64,000 nucleotides of DNA from Acidimicrobiales bacterium (GTDB taxonomy: Bacteria > Actinomycetota > Acidimicrobiia > Acidimicrobiales > SZUA-35). Every line of letters begins with the position of its first letter. The stretch's first letter is position 1. Location of the stretch: contig JBOEHD010000063.1 in the NCBI GenBank assembly GCA_050633745.1, forward strand, positions 48,346 to 112,345, read 5' to 3'. A program made the translations under genes and the position numbers. Under the pieces are notes generated by a model. It saw only the letters and a program-made list of their open reading frames with translations. It was not told where the DNA came from and did no database searches. Of this stretch, positions 2,095-62,572 are shown piece after piece.

Positions 2095-3144
2095 GTGCCA
2101 CAAATCGAATCGGTCACCACCGAAGTCCTGGCGGGCAAGAATCTAATAAACGTCATCGTTCGAGTCCGCGACCGTGACGGCGCTGAGGGAACCGGCGAAG
2201 CCTGGTGGGGTATCCCCGACCGCACCGACCCTCCACGGGCGGCCACACCTATAACCGCGGTGATCGACGATCTGCTGGCACCAAGAGTTGTCGGCCGCGA
2301 CGCCGATCACATAGAGCGAATTTGGCACGAGCTATGGGACTGGGGCTACCGCTACGCCGACCAGGGCATCTTTCAGATGGGACTATCGGGACTCGACCTG
2401 GCCCTGTGGGATCTGAAAGGTAAACGCCTAGAACAGCCGGTGGCGTCGCTGCTCGGCGGGCCGGCGAGCGATGGCATCCGCGCCTACGCAAGCTTCCCGG
2501 CGCTGCGAACCCCAGAGCTTCTGGTCAGCGAGACCACCAGGGCGATCGAAGCGGGATTTGGGGCGATCAAGCTTCATGAGCTTGACCCTGAACTCACCGC
2601 GTTGCTGCGCAACGAGTTCGGCGACGAGGTGGAAATCATGGTCGATGTGAATGGCCACTTCGATCCGATCGAAGCCATCGAACACGGAAAACGGCTCAGC
2701 GAGCTCGGGGTGCTTTGGTTCGAGGAACCGGTGCGGCCTATGCGCGATCACCGAGCGCTGAAACGGGTGAACGACGCCATCGCCTGCGATCTTGCGGCGG
2801 GCGAAAACGAATACACCCTCGATGACTTTGATCGCCTACTCAAGACCGGGGCCATCGCCTACCTCCAACCGGAAATCACCAAGATCGGCGGCATGACGCC
2901 CGCCCGACGGGTCAGCGCCCTGGCCGAGCTCTACAACGTGGCACTCAGCCCTCACAACTTCCGTCTCGGGCCGTCGCTCTACGCGTCAATCCAATGGGCA
3001 TTCACCACCCCAGCTACAAGGTGGATGGAGATTCCATGGCTGCCACCGGGCTCGGAATTTTCGTTCCCAACCGTGCTGCCACCGATGAAAGACGGCATGG
3101 TTCTGCCGCTGACCGAACCCGGCCTCGGTGTTCTCGCAAGCTAA
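2095..3144 (+). CDS. Enolase-superfamily enzyme (mandelate racemase / muconate lactonizing enzyme family, probable acid-sugar dehydratase)
   Basis: Family signature segments: GEAWWG, KLHELD, MVDVNGHF, WFEEP, AAGENEY (the metal-ligand Asp/Glu/Glu pattern). GTG start. Confidence 0.85.
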   Translation: MPQIESVTTEVLAGKNLINVIVRVRDRDGAEGTGEAWWGIPDRTDPPRAATPITAVIDDLLAPRVVGRDADHIERIWHELWDWGYRYADQGIFQMGLSGLDLALWDLKGKRLEQPVASLLGGPASDGIRAYASFPALRTPELLVSETTRAIEAGFGAIKLHELDPELTALLRNEFGDEVEIMVDVNGHFDPIEAIEHGKRLSELGVLWFEEPVRPMRDHRALKRVNDAIACDLAAGENEYTLDDFDRLLKTGAIAYLQPEITKIGGMTPARRVSALAELYNVALSPHNFRLGPSLYASIQWAFTTPATRWMEIPWLPPGSEFSFPTVLPPMKDGMVLPLTEPGLGVLAS

Positions 3145-3197
3145 ACGTCACTCGGGTTTGATGGGCCTCCGGTTGCAGTCGGGCCTAGCCTGAATTC

Positions 3198-4076
3198 ATG
3201 GCAAGCGTCGAAGCAAACGGAATGACCATCGAGTACGACATCCGAGGCGATGGTGAACCGATGCTGCTCGTCATGGGTTTGGCAGGCCAGCTGGTCGACT
3301 GGCCAGACGACTTTGTCGACCTCTTCGTCGACCAGGGCTTCAAGGTCATTCGATTCGATAACCGAGATATCGGCTTGTCGACAAAAACCAACTGGACACC
3401 GCCGAGCGATGCCAAGACCCTGAGGTCAATGATCACTCGCCGCCCGCTACCCGGGGTCGGCTACACGATCAGCGACATGGCAGCCGATGCTGCAGGCTTG
3501 CTCGACGCACTGGGCATCGACGACGCCCACGTTGTCGGAATGTCGATGGGCGGCATGATCGCCCAGGAGCTGGCCATCAACCATCCGCAGAAGGTTCGTT
3601 CCCTCTGCTCGGTCATGTCCAACACCGGCGACCGCAAGAACGGCGGCATCGCCGCTTCTCTCCTAGCCAAGATGGCCCGTCGCAAACCACCGACAAAGGC
3701 CACTGCAGCCGACGCCTCGGTTGAGCTGTTCAGTCTGATTGCCGGACCGCACTATGACCCGATCGAGCATCGCAAGCTGGTGGCGTTGAACATCGAACGC
3801 AGTTTCGCCCCCGACGGTGTCGCCCGACAGACCGCAGCCATTGCCGGCAGTCGCAACCGCACGCCGTTCCTGGCGTTGGTGAAAGCGCCGACGCTGGTCA
3901 TCCACGGCCTGGTCGACCCGCTAGTGAAACCGAGCGGCGGTGTGGCCACCGCCAAAGCTATCCCCGGGGCCCGGCTGTTGGCCTTTCCCGACATGGGTCA
4001 TGACCTGCCGCGGCCCCGTTGGCCTGAGATGCGCGACGCCATCATCGAAAACTGCGGGCGGGCTGTAAGGGTCTAG
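3198..4076 (+). CDS. Alpha/beta-fold hydrolase
   Basis: Nucleophile elbow GMSMGG. N-terminal LLVMGLAG oxyanion region. C-terminal HGLVDP...GH typical of the fold. Confidence 0.85.
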   Translation: MASVEANGMTIEYDIRGDGEPMLLVMGLAGQLVDWPDDFVDLFVDQGFKVIRFDNRDIGLSTKTNWTPPSDAKTLRSMITRRPLPGVGYTISDMAADAAGLLDALGIDDAHVVGMSMGGMIAQELAINHPQKVRSLCSVMSNTGDRKNGGIAASLLAKMARRKPPTKATAADASVELFSLIAGPHYDPIEHRKLVALNIERSFAPDGVARQTAAIAGSRNRTPFLALVKAPTLVIHGLVDPLVKPSGGVATAKAIPGARLLAFPDMGHDLPRPRWPEMRDAIIENCGRAVRV

Positions 4077-4113
4077 TTCTGCCACCGGGTGCTGCGCGGG
4101 TTAGTTTTGCCCG

Positions 4114-4899
4114 ATGGATGTTCGTTTGGATGGTAGGAACGCTCTAATCACCGGTGGAAGTCTGGGCCTCGGCCTAGCTATGGCCACCGAATTCGCTCGA
4201 TCGGGGGCGACGGTGGCCATCGTTGGCCGCACCCAGGCAACCCTCGATGAGGCGGTGGCCAGCATCACCGCCGAGGCGCCAGAGGCCACGGTGCAGGCCT
4301 TTGCCTGCGACGTTCGAGACGCCGCTGCTCTGACCGCGACCCATGAGCAGGTCGTGGCGGCCATCGGCCCGATCGACATTCTGGTCAACAACGCAGGTAC
4401 GTCGGCGGCCATGCCGTTCCTGAAGTCAACCGACGAGGACTGGCAGAACGACCTCGACCTGAAGTTGTTGGCTGCGGTTCGCCTCTGTCGGCTTTGTATC
4501 CCGGCCATGGTTGAGGCCGGGCGGGGCCGAATCATCAACGTGCTAAACACCGCGGCCAAGGCGCCCGGTGCGAAGTCTGCCCCGACCTCGGTGAGCCGAG
4601 CGGCCGGCATGGCGCTGACCAAGGTGCTGGCCTCCGAGTTCGCATCATCAGGAATTCTGGTCAACGCATTGAACACCGGCGTTCTAAAAACCAGCCAGTG
4701 GCATCGCCTGCACACCGAACGTTCCCCGGAGCTGACGTTCGATGAGTTCATCGAGTCGGTCGGCAAGAACATCCCGGTTGGTCGTATGGGTGACGCGTCA
4801 GAGTTCGCCAACCTGGCCTGCTTCCTCGCCTCCGATCAGGCTTCATACATCACCGGAACCGCTATCAACGTCGACGGTGGCATGGCGCCGGTGGTTTGA
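4114..4899 (+). CDS. Short-chain dehydrogenase/reductase (SDR)
   Basis: Cofactor motif ITGGSLGLGLA and the NNAG motif. Length of about 260 aa is typical of a classical SDR. Confidence 0.9.
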   Translation: MDVRLDGRNALITGGSLGLGLAMATEFARSGATVAIVGRTQATLDEAVASITAEAPEATVQAFACDVRDAAALTATHEQVVAAIGPIDILVNNAGTSAAMPFLKSTDEDWQNDLDLKLLAAVRLCRLCIPAMVEAGRGRIINVLNTAAKAPGAKSAPTSVSRAAGMALTKVLASEFASSGILVNALNTGVLKTSQWHRLHTERSPELTFDEFIESVGKNIPVGRMGDASEFANLACFLASDQASYITGTAINVDGGMAPVV

Positions 4900-4927
4900 G
4901 CCAGCGGTTTGAGCCGCTCGCCAGCCA

Positions 4928-5332
4928 CTAGCCAGCAGCACCCGGGTGCAGCGGATCTTGACCCAGACGGTCGAGTCTCCGCAGCTGGGCCTTCACATAG
5001 TCTCGGGCGCGGCGTTGGCCGCCGCGCTCACCTATGGCCTCTTGGAGGCGTAGCAGCCCGGCCCGAACTACCTCCCGCCGCGGCTGCCAACCGCTGGCTT
5101 CACACTGCGCTAGCCACTGGCACGGTGTGCTGTGACCGCGACGGCTATTGCACCGCGAGCAGGCCGCCAACTCGTTCTCGATCCAGCTCGGACCACCTTT
5201 GAGCTTCGGGACAAGATGCTCAGTCGTCGCTCGGACCAGGGGTGTATCGATCTCGCGGTTGCACCAAACGCACCGCGCTCCGTCCCGTTCGAGGATCAGC
5301 AGCAGCCGGGCCGCTCGATCTACCTGAGCCAC
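4928..5332 (-). CDS. Stand-alone HNH endonuclease
   Basis: HNH/zinc-ribbon core CVWCNREID...TTEHLVPKLKGGPSWIENELAACSRCNSRRGH. The start is uncertain. The ORF is open to 5467 (TTG), but that would overlap the divergent gene at 5447. The GTG at 5332 gives the usual ~20 aa lead before the first Cys pair. Confidence 0.65.
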   Translation of the reverse strand: MAQVDRAARLLLILERDGARCVWCNREIDTPLVRATTEHLVPKLKGGPSWIENELAACSRCNSRRGHSTPCQWLAQCEASGWQPRREVVRAGLLRLQEAIGERGGQRRARDYVKAQLRRLDRLGQDPLHPGAAG

Positions 5333-10015: not shown

Positions 10016-11335
10016 CTACGAAGTGAGGGTAGCCGCCGTCGATTGGTTGAGCTGGTCGATGCCCTGGATGATCTCCAACATGGTGGCAGAAGCCGACTCG
10101 ACGTCGCTCCGAGCCCGGTCGGTGGTATCACGCTGCTCTCGTACCCCGGTCTCGACCTGCTGCTGACGACCGACGATCGAGTCGACAAGCTCGGCAACGC
10201 CCGATACCCGGGTAGCGGAACTGGTCACCCGGGAACGTAGATCGTCGGTGATCTCTCGGATCTGGTCGGTGGCCTGTGAAGTCTGCTTTGCCAGGTCCTT
10301 CACTTCGGTTGCGACCACGGTGAAGCCGCGTCCGGCGGTGCCAGCTCGCTCGGCTTCGATGGTGGCATTTAGAGCGAGGAGATTGGTCTTGTTGGCAATG
10401 TCGGAGATCAGGTCGACCATCTCGGTGATTCGACGACTCCGCTCATCGAGTTCTTCGACGACCTGCTGTGTGGTCGAGGCCTCGTCGTTGGCCCGCAGGG
10501 CCAACTCCAGAACCTGATGAACCTCGTCGGAGATTGCGCTCGAAGTCTCGGTCATCGTTGTCATCGTTGATGATGTCTCGCCGATCATTTCTCGCACACG
10601 GGCCGAAGACGAAGCCAAATCAGAGGAGCGTCGGGCGACATCTTCGGCCTGGGCCACCTGTTGTTCGAGGTTCTGCCGCTGGCTCTCGGCGAGAACGATA
10701 CTCTCGTCGCTGAGCAGCTTCTGTCGCTCCATCGTGGCGTCCTGTTGTGCCGATAACATCAGCCATCGGTCATGCTGCAGTTGCAGTGTGTACCAGTTGA
10801 TGGATAGCGCCCCGATCAGCATCAGGACGAAGAAGACGTGCACCGCAGTCCACAACAGCGGATTCTGTTGCCCACGCTCGTGCTCAAAAAGGATGGCCGG
10901 ATCATAGACACTCAACGTGGCGTGGTGGACTGCGGTGAAGCCCACCACCGCTACGAACGGCCGCAGGTCGACATACAGAGCGGTCAGTGTGAGCACAACA
11001 AACCAATGGAAGTGAGCCTCGATGATGCCGCCGCTGAAGTGAATTAGAGTTGCTGCTGCGTAGACGAGACCCACCGAAGTGGCGATGGAACGAATCAGGC
11101 GGTGCATCTCACTCAGGCCAAGGACGCCAAGTACAAACACCGGCAAGGTCTCAACAGAGGCATGCCACAGGGCATAGTCCTTGAGTAGTCCGATAGCTAA
11201 CAACACCGGGATGTGTAGCAAGAGAGTACGGGTGATTAGTCGATGACGGAACTCGAACTGTTCGTCATCGATGGCTCGTCCGTTTGGAATATGGTCCTTA
11301 AAGCCAGTCACCCTTAAGTTGTCGGACTCCGTCAT
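10016..11335 (-). CDS. Methyl-accepting chemotaxis protein (MCP) signalling-domain protein with an N-terminal polytopic membrane domain
   Basis: Highly conserved MCP hairpin tip: [36 protein letters not shown]. The N-terminal ~200 aa hold 5-6 hydrophobic helices rich in His ([23 protein letters not shown]). I prefer the ATG at 11335 (MTESDNL) over the track start at 11419, because 11419 would overlap the divergent gene at 11380. Confidence 0.8.
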
Positions 11336-18758: not shown

Positions 18759-20102
18759 CTAGCATCGTTGCGGTGTCGGCACGGTGGCATGATGTGTGCC
18801 GTTCGGTTTGTAGATCTTCAGACTGCGATCCGGTAGTAGTTTGATCGACCATTGCCCCTCATGAACTCGGTGATGGTGCTTCGAACACAGCGGAATCAGA
18901 TTGTCGAAATCGGTTGCACCACCGTTTTCCCATTCCCGGATGTGGTGGGCCTGACACCACCCGATTGGCGCAGCACACCCTTCCCAACCGCACCGTGCGT
19001 GGATGGTCTTTACGGCTGCCCACTGGGCATCGGTAGCGGTGCGGTACTTGCGCCCGACGTTGATCGGCACCCCGGACTGGTCGAGCGAGACTGGCCGGAC
19101 AACCGCATCGCAGCACAGCCGAGCTATCGACTCCGGCGCCACATCGTGTCCGCTCTCGGTCTGCCGAACCGAGCGCTCATGAGCCCCGTTGACCATCGTG
19201 TCGTGGTCGACAACCACCAGCACCGACGCCATCCGTCTGCCTCGGTCAGCGCCCCCGATATCACCACGCTCACTTCCAGGTTCGGTGACCAGCTCGACCA
19301 GCGCCTGCGCGGCCAAGTTGCTGTCCTTGGTCACCGCTTCATCGCATGCCGCTGCGATTGAGGACACTCGCCGATCGATTGCGCTGACCAACATCTCATA
19401 GCGCTCAGGATCCAACAGTCCCGAGAACCGACCCATACCCGTCGCATGATCGAACCAGTACCGGAACTCAGACGCCGCCTGTTTAGCCTTCGTATCACGA
19501 AGACCGTGATCGGTCGTCGCCGCATCAACACAACGTTTCACGTATCGATCGAACGACTCGGGCAACATACGCTGCGCCCGCTCAACCAGATCGGCAAAAT
19601 TGAAGAACTCTCGCTGCTCGTCGGACAGCTTGGCGGTATGCCGAGCAACCGAATCAACGTGGGAGCCCGTGGTCGCACCAACCGATGCCGCATTACTCAG
19701 GCCCTCAACCTGCTCAACTGTTCTAGCTCGCGCCGACTCGCGGCGAGCCTGCCGAGAGCCAACCTCACCCTCACCCCGCAACGTCTCCTCAGCTGGAGCA
19801 GCAACACCCTCACCAGCGAGCCGATTCGATCGCACACCGATACGAATCACCAAACCATCAAGGCATCGCTGCACCGCTCGCACGTCGCCGAGCAAAGACT
19901 TCAACTCCGGTTCGTCGAAACCAGACACATCAAACTTGGCTAACCCCGCAGGTAGCCCTCGAAGCACCGACCGGATCCCAGCGTCACCGCCAACATCAAC
20001 ATCAACACCCACATCAACACCGCCGTCGACAACATCACGGCGATCGCCATCCAACCCCAACACAGCCAAACCCCACAGCGGCCCACATACGGAGCCAACC
20101 AA
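18759..20102 (-). CDS. DUF222 / HNH endonuclease-domain protein (actinobacterial 13E12-repeat-type)
   Basis: C-terminal HNH: CGWEGCAAPIGWCQAHHIREWENGGATDFDNLIPLCSKHHHRVHEGQW. The long helical N-terminal region is typical of DUF222. Confidence 0.85.
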   Translation of the reverse strand: MVGSVCGPLWGLAVLGLDGDRRDVVDGGVDVGVDVDVGGDAGIRSVLRGLPAGLAKFDVSGFDEPELKSLLGDVRAVQRCLDGLVIRIGVRSNRLAGEGVAAPAEETLRGEGEVGSRQARRESARARTVEQVEGLSNAASVGATTGSHVDSVARHTAKLSDEQREFFNFADLVERAQRMLPESFDRYVKRCVDAATTDHGLRDTKAKQAASEFRYWFDHATGMGRFSGLLDPERYEMLVSAIDRRVSSIAAACDEAVTKDSNLAAQALVELVTEPGSERGDIGGADRGRRMASVLVVVDHDTMVNGAHERSVRQTESGHDVAPESIARLCCDAVVRPVSLDQSGVPINVGRKYRTATDAQWAAVKTIHARCGWEGCAAPIGWCQAHHIREWENGGATDFDNLIPLCSKHHHRVHEGQWSIKLLPDRSLKIYKPNGTHHATVPTPQRC

Positions 20103-59224: not shown

Positions 59225-60561
59225 CCGGAGCCGTTACCGGCTGTGCTGCCGGAGCCGTTACCGGCTGTGCTGCCGAAGTCATAGCCGGCTGTACCGTCGG
59301 CCAGCGGGAGTACGAGGGTGACTAGCGAGCCGCCAAGCTCGCCACTCCCGATCTCCAACTCGCCGCCCACGGCCTCAACGGTGCGCTTAGCGATCGACAA
59401 TCCCAGGCCGGTCGAGCCGCCGGTCGACGAACCGGTCGCCAGTTCCTCCGCTCGGATTCCGGTGCCACCATCCTCCACCCAGATCCGAGCCTGATCGCCC
59501 CAGCGGCCGAACCCGATGGCCAGCGGAATGCCTTCTTCGGTGTGGGCAAAGACGTTTTCCAGCAGCGTGTCGACCGCAGCCGCCAACTCCTGTTCAAGCA
59601 CCGCGACCGGCAGGTGGCCAACACTCTGCACGAATCGCCACGGCCGAGCTTGATCTTCGGCTAGTACCCGCCAGAACTCCGCTCTGTTAATGGTGACCGC
59701 GGCGGCGTCACAAACCGATTTGCCGCCGAGCGCTCCCCTGGCCTCGGCGATCAGCTCGTTGACCACAAGGGTCACATCGTCGAGATCGGCGGCTAACTCC
59801 TGAGCCAGCGCTGGATCGTCGACGTGCTCTATACGCATACGAAGCTTGGTCAAAGGAGTCCGCAGCCGGTGAGAGAGCTCGGCCACCAACTCACGTTCGC
59901 GGTTCAACATCTGGGTGATACGAGAGCCGAGGTCGTTGAACGACCCGCCGAGCTCAAGGAGTTCCGGCGGCCCATCGGGCACAACGGTGACGTCGAGGTG
60001 TCCGTCGCCGAGCCGGCGGGCGGCGGCAGCCAATTCTTCGGCGGGCCGCACGATGGTTCGAGCCAGGCGGTCGGCGACGATGACCGAGATGCCGACCAGC
60101 ACCGCACCGACCGCCGCCAGTGTCAACCAGGCCCGCCATTGCCCCCGCCAGAGAGCGTCGTTGTCGACGAACACCCGGATTGCCGAAATGGTCTCCGGCC
60201 CGGTAGCGACCGCCACCACCACCTCCGCTCCACCCGGCACCGGCCCGATCGCCGAGACCCCTTCCATCCGGGCTCGCTCAAGCCGAGCCGAGTCGCTGTC
60301 GGATCCGATGGACCACCCCTGCGAAGTCTCTATCGACATCCGGGCTTCACGCCCGGCGTTTGTGGTATTCATGGCCGACTCGATCTGGGCCCTGGTCCCG
60401 TCGGCAACCAGCGCAGGCACAACTGCTGAAGCGTCGGCGGTTGCGGCATCGATTGCCCGATCTTCGGCGGTCCGTCTGACCAAGAACCCCAGTGGCACGA
60501 CGAAGGCCACAACAATCAGCATTGATATTGCCACGAATACCGCAATCAGCTGACGCCTCAT
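59221..60561 (-). CDS. Sensor histidine kinase (HAMP + HisKA + HATPase), OmpR-partner type
   Basis: Two TM segments. H-box ELSHRLRTPLTKL. N/G boxes (LENVFAHT, EDGGTGI, GSTGLGLSI). The C-terminal tail is STAGNGSGSTAGNGSG. Confidence 0.9.
   Translation of the reverse strand: MRRQLIAVFVAISMLIVVAFVVPLGFLVRRTAEDRAIDAATADASAVVPALVADGTRAQIESAMNTTNAGREARMSIETSQGWSIGSDSDSARLERARMEGVSAIGPVPGGAEVVVAVATGPETISAIRVFVDNDALWRGQWRAWLTLAAVGAVLVGISVIVADRLARTIVRPAEELAAAARRLGDGHLDVTVVPDGPPELLELGGSFNDLGSRITQMLNRERELVAELSHRLRTPLTKLRMRIEHVDDPALAQELAADLDDVTLVVNELIAEARGALGGKSVCDAAAVTINRAEFWRVLAEDQARPWRFVQSVGHLPVAVLEQELAAAVDTLLENVFAHTEEGIPLAIGFGRWGDQARIWVEDGGTGIRAEELATGSSTGGSTGLGLSIAKRTVEAVGGELEIGSGELGGSLVTLVLPLADGTAGYDFGSTAGNGSGSTAGNGSG
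59224..59271. repeat. Perfect 24-bp tandem duplication at the 3' end of the kinase gene
   Basis: gccggagccgttaccggctgtgct occurs twice back to back (59224-59247 and 59248-59271). It encodes the duplicated STAGNGSG tail. Confidence 0.9.
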
Positions 60562-61238
60562 GTCGGATCGACCAGCTTGATGCCAACTCCTCGCACGGTG
60601 TGCAGATAGCGCGGCTCAGCTGCGGTCTCGCCCAGCTTGCGTCGCAACCAAGAAAGGTGGACATCGATCGTCTTGTCGGCCCCACCGTATGGCTCCCGCC
60701 AGACTTCGGCGTACAGCTCTTCTCGGGCTACGACCCGGCCGGCGTTGGCCACCAGATAGGCGAGAAGATCGAACTCCTTTCGATTGCACACCACATCGGC
60801 CCCATCGACTGTCAGGGTGCGAGATCGGGTGTCGACCGTCAGGCCACCGACCGTCAATACCCGGGCCCCTCCGCTGGCGGCGATTCGCCGCAGGATGGCC
60901 CGAAGGCGGGCTTCGAGTTCCGCTCCGGAGAACGGCTTGACCACATAGTCGTCGGCCCCTGCATCGAGCAGGCGGACGATCTCCGCATCATCATCCCTCG
61001 CGGTGGCGATGATGACCGGCACATCCGAAACGGCCCGAATCATGCGAAGAACATCTGACCCGTCGACATCGGGCAAACCCAGATCGAGAACAACAACATC
61101 GGGGCTCACATCGATGACCGACTGCAGCCCGGCCATGCCCGTCGATTCGGCACGAACGGCGTGCCCGGCGCCAGCCATAGCGCGGATCGCCAGCTCACGA
61201 ATTGTCAGATCATCTTCGATCACGAGCACCGATGCCAT
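60558..61238 (-). CDS. OmpR/PhoB-family response regulator
   Basis: Receiver VLVIEDDLTIRE...DVVVLDLGLPDVDG. Winged-helix output domain LTVDGADVVCNRKEFDLLAYL...IDVHLSWLRRKL. Confidence 0.95.
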   Translation of the reverse strand: MASVLVIEDDLTIRELAIRAMAGAGHAVRAESTGMAGLQSVIDVSPDVVVLDLGLPDVDGSDVLRMIRAVSDVPVIIATARDDDAEIVRLLDAGADDYVVKPFSGAELEARLRAILRRIAASGGARVLTVGGLTVDTRSRTLTVDGADVVCNRKEFDLLAYLVANAGRVVAREELYAEVWREPYGGADKTIDVHLSWLRRKLGETAAEPRYLHTVRGVGIKLVDPT

Positions 61239-62083: not shown

Positions 62084-62572
62084 CTACGACGCCTCGGCCG
62101 CTGGCTCGCCGAGTAACTGCTTCGCTGCGTTCCCGGCTCGGTTGTTCAGGTTGGCCTGCCCGGCAACCAGGATCAACTCAGATAGCTGTTCCTCGGTGAA
62201 GTGACTTCGCAACTCGGCCACAAGTTCGGGGTCGAGTTCGTGACTCTCACCGCACATGGCGTCTGCGAGGTGCAGCACCGCCCGGGATCGATCGTCGAAG
62301 ACGTCGTCCCAGGTTGCTGGCGCCTCGAGCGCGTTGATCTCGTCTTCGGTAACCCCTCGTCGTCTCGCCGAGACAACATGACCGGTGATTCAAGTGGGGC
62401 ATTGGTTGACGATCGAGCTGCGCAGGAACACCAGTTCCTTCAGCTGGGCCGGAGCCGCTCCCCCGTCTGCCCACAGGGTTTTTCCAAAGGCGTTGTACGG
62501 ATCGGTGGTTCCATCCACCTTGGCCAATACATAGGCCAACGGTGCACCGGATAGCTTCGGTCGACTCTTCAC
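62084..62572 (-). CDS. AhpD / carboxymuconolactone-decarboxylase (CMD) family protein with one in-frame TGA (62390-62392): candidate selenoprotein, alternatively a pseudogene
   Basis: Track ORFs 62390-62572 and 62084-62278 share one frame. They are separated only by the TGA and 37 stop-free codons. The joined translation reads LKELVFLRSSIVNQCPT[TGA]ITGHVVSARRRGVTEDEINAL...LHLADAMCGE..., the CMD core, with the TGA where the second Cys of CxxCxxxH belongs. Confidence 0.6.
62359..62377 (-). promoter_or_regulatory. Hairpin downstream of the in-frame TGA (candidate bacterial SECIS element)
   Basis: mRNA GUUGUCUC-GGC-GAGACGAC forms 8 bp including one G-U pair. It starts 13 nt after the UGA, which puts the G-containing apical loop about 20 nt from the UGA. 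Confidence 0.35.

What the first reader, a model, noticed from the sequence alone, without database searches (positions are those of the whole stretch)
62084..62572. In-frame TGA replaces the second Cys of the CxxC redox motif in an AhpD/CMD-family gene, with a hairpin just downstream: candidate selenoprotein
What the sequence shows:
- The ORF track splits this locus into two small minus-strand ORFs. They share one frame and are separated only by a single TGA (62390-62392) and 37 stop-free codons.
- Reading through gives ...LKELVFLRSSIVNQ-C-P-T-[TGA]-I-T-G-H-VVSARRRGVTEDEINAL....
- The CMD/AhpD core is C-x-x-C-x-x-x-H followed by G-x-[ST]-x-[DE]-E-[IL]. The stop codon therefore falls exactly on the resolving Cys, giving CxxU.
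- Thirteen nucleotides downstream the mRNA can fold into an 8-bp stem (GUUGUCUC/GAGACGAC, 62359-62377). Its G-rich apical loop sits about 20 nt from the UGA, the position range used by bacterial SECIS elements.

Interpretation: Sec-for-Cys swaps in thiol-redox folds, including AhpD-like proteins, are a known pattern in bacterial selenoproteomes. A random nonsense mutation would have no reason to hit this exact codon and leave the downstream 101 codons intact. No Sec machinery genes are visible in this window.
Basis: partly seen in the sequence, partly recalled or inferred. Interest (0 to 1): 0.8.

Follow-up and report, generated by a model that had tools for sequence, protein, structure and literature searches.

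The report
AhpD-like selenoprotein gene with SECIS hairpin
The two small ORFs are one gene for a small AhpD-type redox protein whose in-frame TGA almost certainly encodes selenocysteine; this kind of selenoprotein has been known since 2005, so the finding is correct but ordinary.

Summary
On the minus strand, 62572..62084 is a single 162-codon reading frame with one in-frame TGA (62392-62390).

- **Family and TGA position:** The joined protein is a CMD/AhpD-family protein. The TGA falls on the second Cys of the AhpD relay E-x11-C-x-x-C-x3-H, the position of Cys51 in PA0269.
- **Orthologs:** 55 of 56 full-length orthologs have TGA at this codon. Most are Acidimicrobiales MAGs; a few are Chloroflexota and Rokubacteriota. 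About 100 intact, protein-constrained codons follow the TGA. A minority of relatives carry TGC or TGT instead.
- **Hairpin:** A 9-bp hairpin with a GGC loop starts 12 nt after the UGA in every TGA form. It shows compensatory base changes and is degraded in 5 of 6 Cys forms. This is a bacterial SECIS element.
- **Sec machinery:** None lies in the window. One ortholog-bearing Acidimicrobiales contig carries selD 9 kb away, and that selD itself has an active-site TGA.
- **Novelty:** AhpD-like CxxU selenoproteins were described from the Sargasso Sea (2005) and GOS (2008) metagenomes. This is a new member of a known kind. Public gene calls split it in two, and no curated NCBIfam selenoprotein model captures it.

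The parts
62084..62572 (-). Complete AhpD-like selenoprotein gene. It has 162 codons, a GTG start at 62572-62570, Sec-UGA as codon 61, and a TAG stop at 62086-62084.
   Evidence: Single frame with one internal TGA. Pfam CMD and TIGR00778 hits on the joined product. Orthologs start at the same M/V-K-S-R-P-K-L.
62390..62392 (-). In-frame UGA, read as selenocysteine (U61). It corresponds to Cys51 of PA0269 and Cys133 of M. tuberculosis AhpD.
   Evidence: TGA at this codon in 55 of 56 full-length genome orthologs, and TGC/TGT in a minority. Aligned to the second Cys of the CxxC in PDB 2ijc/2o4d. Residue roles are taken from PMC3141380.
62378..62437 (-). Catalytic helix-turn-helix signature E46-x11-C58-P-T-U61-x3-H65. 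Codons: E46 62437-62435, C58 62401-62399, U61 62392-62390, H65 62380-62378.
   Evidence: Residue-by-residue alignment to PA0269 Glu36/Cys48/Cys51/His55. The proton-relay description is in PMC3141380.
62358..62378 (-). Bacterial SECIS core: a 9-bp stem (U-G closing pair plus GUUGUCUC/GAGACGAC) with apical loop GGC (62369-62367). The stem starts 12 nt after the UGA and lies within codons H65-V-V-S-A-R-R-R.
   Evidence: MFE and centroid folds. Present in all TGA orthologs. RNAalifold consensus shows 4 pairs with compensatory changes. 97.3% of cells are paired, and 32 double-change cells are seen against 10 +/- 2.4 in shuffles. G39 and G40 of the loop are invariant in 47/47 sequences.
62355..62381 (-). 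Possible lower extension of the SECIS stem: two more pairs (C-G, and C/U-G) across a one-base internal loop.
   Evidence: Predicted by RNAalifold. Pair 28-52 is invariant C-G. Pair 27-53 is C-G in 24, U-G in 15 and unpaired in 8 sequences. This is weak support.

Best explanation
The locus is one gene for a ~17 kDa AhpD-like (CMD-fold) thiol/selenol oxidoreductase. Codon 61, UGA, is decoded as selenocysteine.

Proposed mechanism, with what is shown and what is inferred:
1. As the ribosome reaches the UGA, the mRNA hairpin 12 nt downstream acts as a bacterial SECIS. It has a 9-bp stem and a GGC loop. It would recruit SelB-GTP-Sec-tRNA(Sec), so that Sec is inserted instead of termination. The hairpin's existence, position, conservation and covariation are shown. 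SelB binding is inferred from the established bacterial Sec pathway.
2. The product carries the AhpD proton-relay signature E46...C58-P-T-U61...H65, with Sec in place of the second Cys of the CxxC. It most likely cycles between a selenol/thiol state and a selenenylsulfide (Se-S) state. In that cycle it would reduce a peroxide directly or, like AhpD, re-reduce an oxidised peroxiredoxin or another partner. The motif alignment is shown. The chemistry is inferred from M. tuberculosis AhpD and PA0269.

The host is probably an Acidimicrobiales (Actinomycetota) bacterium. This is inferred from the best-matching loci only.
For: - **Frame and family:** One frame with one TGA. CMD/AhpD domain hits.
- **Fragmented database entries:** In the protein database the family appears as N-terminal fragments ending exactly at ...C-x-x and C-terminal fragments beginning one codon after it. 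A few full-length CxxC forms also occur.
- **TGA in orthologs:** 55 of 56 full-length loci from species-representative genomes have TGA at this codon. Identity runs from 74% down to about 46-49%, across Acidimicrobiales, Thermomicrobiales/Chloroflexia and Rokubacteriota. One locus (L020) has TGC. The search patterns came from the C-terminal motif, so they did not favour TGA forms.
- **Downstream codons are protein-coding:** Pairwise differences by codon position (1st/2nd/3rd) are 0.24/0.17/0.45 just after the TGA and 0.21/0.17/0.53 in the C-terminal block. Upstream they are 0.19/0.085/0.50.
- **Extra constraint on the hairpin:** Third-position divergence falls to 0.25 in the hairpin codons.
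- **Covariation:** 97.3% of cells are paired. 4 pairs show compensatory changes. 0 of 500 shuffles reach the observed score. Slid controls give 35-70% paired.
- **Cys forms:** L020, L059, L060, L062 and L063 encode nearly the same peptide with other codons and no comparable hairpin.
- **Sec use in the clade:** L038, an Acidimicrobiales contig with the TGA gene, carries selD 9 kb away (TIGR00476, 375.8 bits). That selD has TGA at its active-site Cys followed by a strong hairpin. 37 of its 39 closest metagenomic relatives are also TGA forms.
- **TGA is a normal stop in the window:** 40 of 84 coding-like ORFs end in TGA.
- **Active site:** It aligns to PA0269 Glu36/Cys48/Cys51/His55.
- **Precedent:** AhpD-like CxxU selenoproteins are an established family (PMC1088965, PMC2398784).
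Against: - No selA, selB, selC or selD, and no tRNA-Sec, lie in the 64-kb window. The rest of the genome is not available.
- On this single sequence the fold energy is not better than shuffles (z = +0.8).
- Part of the hairpin's conservation follows from the conserved peptide HVVSARRRG.
- No Rfam family matches. Rfam represents bacterial SECIS elements poorly.
- There is no experimental evidence for selenium incorporation or for peroxidase activity in this subfamily.
- The full machinery (selA, selB, selC) was not seen on any contig that carries this gene.
Confidence: 0.9

Rival explanations
1. Decaying pseudogene: a nonsense mutation (TGC/TGT to TGA) inactivated an ordinary CxxC AhpD-like gene.
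For: A Cys codon becomes TGA by a single base change. Cys forms exist. Gene callers treat the locus as two fragments. One locus, L057, does hold only a C-terminal remnant of the gene.
Against: The same TGA is present in 55 of 56 orthologs down to about 46-49% identity, in three phyla. There are no further stops or frameshifts. Third-position-dominated divergence downstream shows purifying selection on the protein. A covarying hairpin is tied to the TGA forms.
Confidence: 0.02
2. UGA is recoded, but not to selenocysteine. Either stop-codon read-through inserts Trp, Cys or Arg by near-cognate decoding, or the lineage has reassigned UGA. The hairpin would then merely stimulate read-through.
For: JGI's pipeline translated the TGA of one ortholog as W (P0006/L061). 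Sec machinery could not be checked in the window's genome.
Against: TGA is the commonest stop of coding-like ORFs in the window (40 of 84), and genes are long under code 11. That rules out reassignment. The recoded position is a catalytic redox Cys, which is the signature of Sec/Cys exchange. Hairpin geometry and the G-containing small loop match bacterial SECIS as described in PMC1088965. A relative's contig encodes selD, itself with an active-site TGA.
Confidence: 0.04
3. Two separately functional small proteins: a 60-aa N-terminal peptide and a C-terminal ~100-aa protein, with termination at UGA and re-initiation. The hairpin would be an intercistronic regulatory element.
For: In many orthologs an ATG/GTG/TTG codon directly follows the TGA, so gene callers predict a C-terminal ORF starting there.
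Against: In the window the codon after the TGA is ATC, and the first in-frame start is 38 codons downstream. The split would cut the CxxC/His catalytic helix in two. Full-length Cys forms show that the unit is one polypeptide. No Shine-Dalgarno-like element is required or conserved there (alignment).
Confidence: 0.02

Closest known systems
AhpD-like and CMD-domain selenoproteins of marine metagenomes. Zhang, Fomenko and Gladyshev 2005 (Sargasso Sea, PMC1088965): 'AhpD-like protein', COG2128, CXXU, 27 sequences, and 'CMD domain-containing protein', CXXU. Zhang and Gladyshev 2008 (GOS, PMC2398784): AhpD-like 1, 299 sequences, and AhpD-like 2, pfam02627, 70 sequences.
   Same: Same fold family (PF02627/AhpD core). 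Same CxxU motif with Sec at the second Cys. Same kind of downstream stem-loop with G in a small apical loop. Cys homologs coexist.
   Different: I could not retrieve the published sequences, so assignment to subfamily 1 or 2 is unresolved. This clade is assigned here to Acidimicrobiales MAGs, with Chloroflexota and Rokubacteriota outliers, and is almost fixed for Sec (55 of 56). In the GOS data, Cys homologs outnumbered Sec forms (902 vs 299 and 207 vs 70).
PA0269 of Pseudomonas aeruginosa (PDB 2O4D/2IJC, also 7XW1), an AhpD-like weak hydroperoxidase (PMC3141380)
   Same: Closest solved structure by sequence (E = 5e-12 over residues 42-147). The proton-relay residues Glu36/Cys48/Cys51/His55 align to E46/C58/U61/H65.
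   Different: PA0269 has Cys, not Sec. It has Tyr50 where the window protein has Thr60. Sequence similarity outside the catalytic helices is only moderate.
Mycobacterium tuberculosis AhpD (Glu118, Cys130, His132, Cys133, His137), the adaptor that re-reduces AhpC
   Same: Same catalytic signature, E-x11-C-x-x-C-x3-H, and the same presumed dithiol/disulfide-type chemistry.
   Different: It is only distantly related and has a different helix topology, with the motif at the C-terminus (PMC3141380). No ahpC is seen next to the window gene and there is no conserved neighbourhood. A partnership with AhpC is therefore unproven.
NCBIfam curated AhpD-related (seleno)protein models: NF053654 (YciW-related), NF041238 (CFYUT), NF041047 (GSU3128 family), NF041537 (ArsM/AhpD). 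Also TIGR01926, peroxidase-related enzyme.
   Same: All are AhpD-fold proteins, several with CxxU. All give partial, significant local matches around the catalytic helices.
   Different: Every score is far below the curated cut-off: 39 vs 310, 24.8 vs 175, 23.5 vs 110, 17.8 vs 510, and 36.6 vs 81.8. The window protein is therefore not a member of any of these named families.
Bacterial SECIS elements, with E. coli fdhF/fdnG as the archetype
   Same: A stem-loop inside the coding sequence immediately 3' of the UGA. The apical hairpin begins about 11-12 nt after the UGA and has conserved G in a small loop. The E. coli spacing is from my own knowledge.
   Different: The loop here is only 3 nt (GGC) and the upper stem has no bulged U. 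SelB binding is not tested.

Membership tests
Bacterial selenoprotein gene (Sec-UGA plus SECIS) | In-frame UGA at a position occupied by Cys in homologs | tested here: met
   The TGA column is the second Cys of the CxxC in P0001-P0005, P0007, P0008, L020, L058-L060, L062 and L063, and in PDB 2ijc/2o4d.
Bacterial selenoprotein gene (Sec-UGA plus SECIS) | UGA conserved among orthologs, with an intact and selectively constrained reading frame downstream | tested here: met
   55 of 56 full-length loci have TGA. Codon-position divergence downstream is 0.21/0.17/0.53.
Bacterial selenoprotein gene (Sec-UGA plus SECIS) | Stem-loop just 3' of the UGA with a small, G-containing apical loop | tested here: met
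   9-bp stem starting 12 nt after the UGA, with loop GGC and both G invariant in 47/47 sequences. Criterion as worded in PMC1088965. No dedicated bSECIS predictor was available.
Bacterial selenoprotein gene (Sec-UGA plus SECIS) | RNA structure supported by covariation and tied to the UGA forms | tested here: met
   4 pairs have compensatory changes. 32 double-change cells are seen against 10 +/- 2.4, with 0 of 500 shuffles as high. 97.3% of cells are paired, against 35-70% when slid. The hairpin is degraded in 5 of 6 Cys forms. L058 retains it.
Bacterial selenoprotein gene (Sec-UGA plus SECIS) | selA, selB, selC (tRNA-Sec) and selD present in the same genome | not testable with these tools
   None lie in the window, and the rest of the genome is not available. 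As a partial proxy, the Acidimicrobiales contig L038 has this gene plus a Sec-containing selD. selD-selC-selA-selB clusters were seen only in more distant metagenomic loci. Sec machinery is reported in Actinomarinales, of the same class (bioRxiv 10.64898/2026.04.03.716425).
Bacterial selenoprotein gene (Sec-UGA plus SECIS) | Selenium physically incorporated at the UGA position | not testable with these tools
   Needs 75Se labelling or mass spectrometry.
AhpD-like / CMD superfamily (PF02627, TIGR00778) | Domain model matched above the curated threshold | tested here: met
   PF02627: 58 bits against a cut-off of 23. TIGR00778: 46.5 bits against a cut-off of 27.8.
AhpD-like / CMD superfamily (PF02627, TIGR00778) | AhpD proton-relay signature Glu-x11-Cys-x-x-Cys-x3-His | tested here: met
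   E46, C58, U61 (for Cys) and H65 align to PA0269 Glu36, Cys48, Cys51 and His55.
AhpD-like / CMD superfamily (PF02627, TIGR00778) | Hydroperoxidase or AhpC-reducing activity | not testable with these tools
   A biochemical assay is needed. No ahpC is adjacent and the neighbourhood is not conserved.
Curated NCBIfam AhpD-related (seleno)protein equivalogs (NF053654, NF041238, NF041047, NF041537) and TIGR01926 | Whole-protein score at or above the family's curated cut-off | tested here: not met
   39/310, 24.8/175, 23.5/110, 17.8/510 and 36.6/81.8 bits.
Gamma-carboxymuconolactone decarboxylase proper | Enzyme-type active site without the CxxC relay, as contrasted with AhpD-like proteins in PMC3141380 | tested here: not met
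   The protein carries the AhpD-type C-x-x-C(U)-x3-H relay, which gamma-CMD enzymes lack.

The most novel reading that the evidence does not exclude
This could be a distinct, so far uncurated AhpD-like subfamily that is essentially fixed for selenocysteine (55 of 56 species representatives). It is centred in Acidimicrobiales and shared with Thermomicrobiales/Chloroflexia and Rokubacteriota. In it the SECIS hairpin and the peptide HVVSARRRG co-evolve. For example, Val-to-Ala and Arg-to-Gln replacements act as compensatory partners of stem pairs.

If so, Sec would be obligatory for its function rather than an interchangeable upgrade of Cys. Its very uniform SECIS could also serve as a marker of Sec decoding in Acidimicrobiales. 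The paper library I searched reports Sec decoding in the class Acidimicrobiia only for Actinomarina.
Probability: 0.35. Interest if true: 0.4.

Novelty: new member of a known kind. Interest (0 to 1): 0.3.

Why it matters
The practical gain is annotation. The locus is one selenoprotein gene, not two hypothetical ORFs and not a pseudogene. The same mis-split affects essentially every public copy of this clade: about 30 fragment clusters in the protein database, and NCBI, ENA and JGI records alike.

It also marks the source organism as a Sec decoder. By comparison, it marks a broad set of Acidimicrobiales MAGs the same way. In the paper library I searched, the only report of Sec machinery in the class Acidimicrobiia is a 2026 preprint on Actinomarina.

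Biologically it adds one more example of Sec replacing a catalytic Cys of an AhpD-type redox relay. It comes with a clean natural experiment. Some Cys revertants have lost the SECIS, and one (L058) still keeps it.

None of this changes current understanding of selenoproteins.

Tried and rejected
- **Rfam and ARAGORN on the window:** Rfam at gathering thresholds found no SECIS or tRNA-Sec. ARAGORN found no tRNA at all.
- **Single-sequence folding:** It does not distinguish the hairpin region from shuffles (z = +0.8). Only comparative analysis does.
- **tblastn for Sec machinery:** I queried with E. coli SelA, SelB and SelD sequences recalled from memory, against the window and 63 loci. The only hit was selD in L038. 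I then confirmed that hit with TIGR00476.
- **Other in-frame TGA genes in the window:** I scanned for TGA flanked by coding-like sequence on both sides. All other candidates look like antisense frames or adjacent genes. None has a redox motif.
- **Exact-sequence look-up:** The window's 60-aa N-terminal ORF is not on record, so the source contig could not be identified.
- **Neighbourhood analysis of 60 loci:** No conserved operon partner appeared. The only large cluster was an antisense-ORF artefact overlapping the gene itself.
- **Promoter and terminator scan around the gene:** Nothing beyond chance.
- **Metagenome scan with the L038 SelD:** Close relatives showed no adjacent selA, selB or selC and no AhpD-like gene.
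- **Odd ARAGORN calls:** Two over-long calls (L013, 99-nt 'tRNA-Leu'; L017, 89-nt 'tRNA-Ala') were checked as possible tRNA-Sec. Rfam did not confirm them.
- **Structure prediction:** I skipped it, because the sequence match to solved AhpD-like structures already places the catalytic residues.

Full report
**1. Observation**

Reading the minus strand from 62572 to 62084 gives one frame of 162 codons. It has a single internal stop, TGA at 62392-62390. Between them lie 37 stop-free codons, and 101 open codons follow the TGA.

The hairpin GUUGUCUC-GGC-GAGACGAC lies at 62377-62359. A U-G pair extends it to 9 bp (62378-62358). It appears in both the MFE and the centroid fold. Every coordinate in the finding is right.

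Taken alone, the 81-nt segment does not fold better than shuffled sequence (z = +0.8). The single sequence therefore cannot show that the hairpin matters.

**2. What the protein is**

With Cys substituted at the TGA, the 162-aa product matches Pfam CMD PF02627 (58 bits, cut-off 23). It also matches the AhpD core domain TIGR00778 (46.5 bits, cut-off 27.8).

The nearest solved structures are the AhpD-like proteins PA0269 (2IJC/2O4D/7XW1, E = 5e-12) and Atu0492 (2GMY). In that alignment E46, C58, [TGA]61 and H65 fall on PA0269 Glu36, Cys48, Cys51 and His55. Those residues, with Tyr50 and a structural water, form the AhpD proton relay. They correspond to Glu118/Cys130/Cys133/His137 of M. tuberculosis AhpD (PMC3141380).

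The protein scores far below the curated cut-offs of TIGR01926 and of the four NCBIfam AhpD-related '(seleno)protein' models. It is not a member of those named families.

**3. Orthologs**

A search of the 5.8-billion-protein collection returned 39 hits:
- Eight were near full length. Seven of these have CxxC.
- About 25 were fragments of 90-100 aa, beginning one codon after the TGA column.
- Five were fragments ending ...N-x-C-x-T, exactly before the TGA column.

This is the footprint of gene callers stopping at a conserved TGA.

A scan of one genome per species used patterns from the C-terminal motif, so it was blind to the TGA. It returned 57 loci. Most are Acidimicrobiales MAGs (57-74% identity). 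A few are Thermomicrobiales/Chloroflexia and one is Rokubacteriota (about 46-49%).
- Of the 56 full-length loci, 55 have TGA at this codon and one (L020) has TGC.
- L057 holds only a C-terminal remnant.
- The eighth 'full-length' database protein, P0006 (CPPW), is in fact a TGA form that JGI translated as Trp.

No ortholog has another stop or a frameshift.

Among 54 TGA forms, pairwise divergence by codon position (1st/2nd/3rd) is as follows:

| Region | 1st | 2nd | 3rd |
|---|---|---|---|
| 16 codons upstream of the TGA | 0.19 | 0.085 | 0.50 |
| 22 codons just downstream | 0.24 | 0.17 | 0.45 |
| C-terminal block | 0.21 | 0.17 | 0.53 |

The part after the TGA evolves as protein-coding sequence under purifying selection. 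This excludes a pseudogene.

**4. The RNA element**

Every TGA form has the hairpin in the same register. In an ungapped alignment of 47 sequences, RNAalifold recovers it. Compensatory changes occur at four pairs:
- U-A to C-G in 14 sequences
- C-G to U-A in 9 sequences
- C-G to U-A in 5 sequences
- U-A to C-G in 4 sequences

Counting the 11-pair structure gave these results:
- 97.3% of cells are paired.
- 32 cells have both sides changed, against 10 +/- 2.4 in shuffles (0 of 500 as high).
- Only 35-70% of cells pair when the 3' partner is slid by 1-3 columns.

The two G of the GGC loop are invariant. Third-position divergence in the hairpin codons is half that of the flanks (0.25 against about 0.5). 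This shows a constraint beyond the peptide.

Some compensations are non-synonymous (Val to Ala with AGA to AGG; GUC to GUU with Arg to Gln). RNA and protein therefore co-evolve here.

The Cys forms serve as controls. L020, L059, L060, L062 and L063 encode nearly the same peptide with different codons. They have no comparable hairpin: -5.2, -5.2, -2.8, 0 and -8.2 kcal/mol, against about -12 for TGA forms. L058 (TGC) still has the intact hairpin, as expected for a recent Sec-to-Cys change.

The geometry fits a bacterial SECIS: the stem starts 12 nt after the UGA, and the small apical loop contains G. This fits the criterion as worded by Zhang et al. 2005 and, from my own knowledge, the E. coli fdhF minimal element.

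**5. Sec machinery**

The window has no tRNA gene, no Rfam hit and no SelA/SelB/SelD homolog. It has no other credible in-frame-TGA gene either. I could not identify or extend the source contig.

Indirect support is good.
- L038, a 303-kb Acidimicrobiales contig, carries the TGA gene. It encodes selD 9 kb downstream (TIGR00476, 375.8 bits against a cut-off of 125). That selD has TGA at its own active-site Cys (HGAG-U-GCK), followed by a strong hairpin.
- 37 of the 39 closest metagenomic relatives of that selD are also TGA forms. These organisms must decode UGA as Sec to make their own SelD.
- selD-tRNA(Sec)-selA-selB clusters appeared only in more distant loci.
- A 2026 preprint reports complete Sec machinery in Actinomarinales, another order of the class Acidimicrobiia.
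- In the window TGA is an ordinary and common stop: 40 of 84 coding-like ORFs. General reassignment is excluded.

**6. Context**

Upstream on the same strand are two branched-chain-type ABC ATPase genes. Downstream are a Ser/Thr/Ala-rich 244-aa ORF with no Pfam hit on the opposite strand, and an OmpR-type response regulator. Across 60 loci no neighbour is conserved. The context gives no clue to a partner such as AhpC.

**7. Mechanism**

Shown:
- One ORF with a UGA at the catalytic Cys.
- A covarying SECIS-type hairpin.
- Sec/Cys alternation among orthologs.
- Sec use in the clade.

Inferred from the established bacterial pathway: SelB-GTP-Sec-tRNA(Sec) binds the hairpin and inserts Sec at codon 61.

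Inferred from AhpD and PA0269: Sec61 with Cys58, assisted by Glu46 and His65, cycles between a selenol/thiol state and a selenenylsulfide state. In that cycle it reduces peroxides or an oxidised partner protein. From memory of Koshkin et al. 2003, not verified here, the equivalent Cys133 of M. tuberculosis AhpD is the residue that attacks AhpC. That would make Sec the attacking nucleophile.

**8. Comparison and novelty**

AhpD-like (COG2128) and CMD-domain (PF02627) selenoproteins with CxxU were discovered in the Sargasso Sea data in 2005. They were among the most abundant selenoprotein families in GOS: 299 and 70 sequences. They are listed in current reviews.

The window gene is a further member of that kind. 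I could not decide which published subfamily it belongs to.

Three points are modestly new:
- The clade is assigned here to Acidimicrobiales.
- It is almost fixed for Sec.
- It is mis-split in public annotation and missed by curated models.

**Verdict**

- Observation: confirmed.
- Interpretation: supported.
- Confidence that this is a Sec-encoding gene: 0.9.
- Novelty: new member of a known kind.
- Interest: 0.3.

Noticed in passing
L038:19205-20245 (+), TGA at 19256-19258: selD (selenide, water dikinase; TIGR00476, 375.8 bits) lies 9 kb downstream of the AhpD-like TGA gene on an Acidimicrobiales contig. It has an in-frame TGA at its active-site Cys (HGAG-U-GCK), followed by a strong hairpin (-35.8 kcal/mol over 66 nt). 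37 of its 39 closest metagenomic relatives (L064-L103) are also TGA forms.
   Followed up: yes
L058:2381-2875 (TGC at 2582): This Cys-form ortholog (P0001) still carries the intact SECIS-type hairpin GUCGUCUC-GGC-GAGACGAC. It looks like a recent Sec-to-Cys conversion with a 'fossil' SECIS. The other five Cys forms have lost the hairpin.
   Followed up: partly
L061:1-414 (TGA at 127): The JGI protein P0006 shows 'CPPW' at the motif, but the DNA has TGA. The pipeline translated the Sec codon as Trp. The look-up tool itself flagged 'translates_to_query: no'.
   Followed up: yes
L057:1445-1618: Only the C-terminal third of the gene (residues 96-153) is recognisable in this Acidimicrobiaceae MAG contig. 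It is preceded by unrelated-looking sequence, so it may be a genuine gene remnant or an assembly chimera.
   Followed up: no
L054:10001-10450 (TGA at 10172): This Thermomicrobiales ortholog keeps C-x-x-U and the hairpin. It has Arg where the relay His (H65) should be (C-D-T-U-V-R-A-R).
   Followed up: no
L097, L109, L116, L136 (for example L097: selB 1762-2808, selA 3063-4148, selD 4202-5224, tRNA-SeC 5233-5328): Compact selD / tRNA-Sec / selA / selB clusters occur in metagenomic contigs whose SelD is 53-63% identical to the Acidimicrobiales one. All four of these SelD are Cys forms. L114 and L115 also carry a tRNA-SeC.
   Followed up: partly
L013:3156-3254 and L017:9146-9234: ARAGORN called unusually long tRNAs here: a 99-nt 'tRNA-Leu(tag)' and an 89-nt 'tRNA-Ala(tgc)'. 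Rfam at gathering threshold did not confirm either, so they are probably false positives.
   Followed up: partly
window:61341-62075 (+): A 244-aa ORF converges on the selenoprotein gene. It has a hydrophobic N-terminus, a long Ser/Thr/Ala-rich low-complexity middle and a short conserved-looking C-terminal domain. It has no Pfam hit. It sits next to an OmpR-type response regulator (60558-61238, minus strand).
   Followed up: no
window:62359-62378 and alignment A3 columns 33/47 and 35/45: Some compensatory changes in the SECIS stem are non-synonymous. GUC to GCC (Val to Ala) pairs with AGA to AGG. GUC to GUU pairs with CGA to CAA (Arg to Gln). The peptide HVVSARRRG and the RNA stem therefore constrain each other.
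   Followed up: partly
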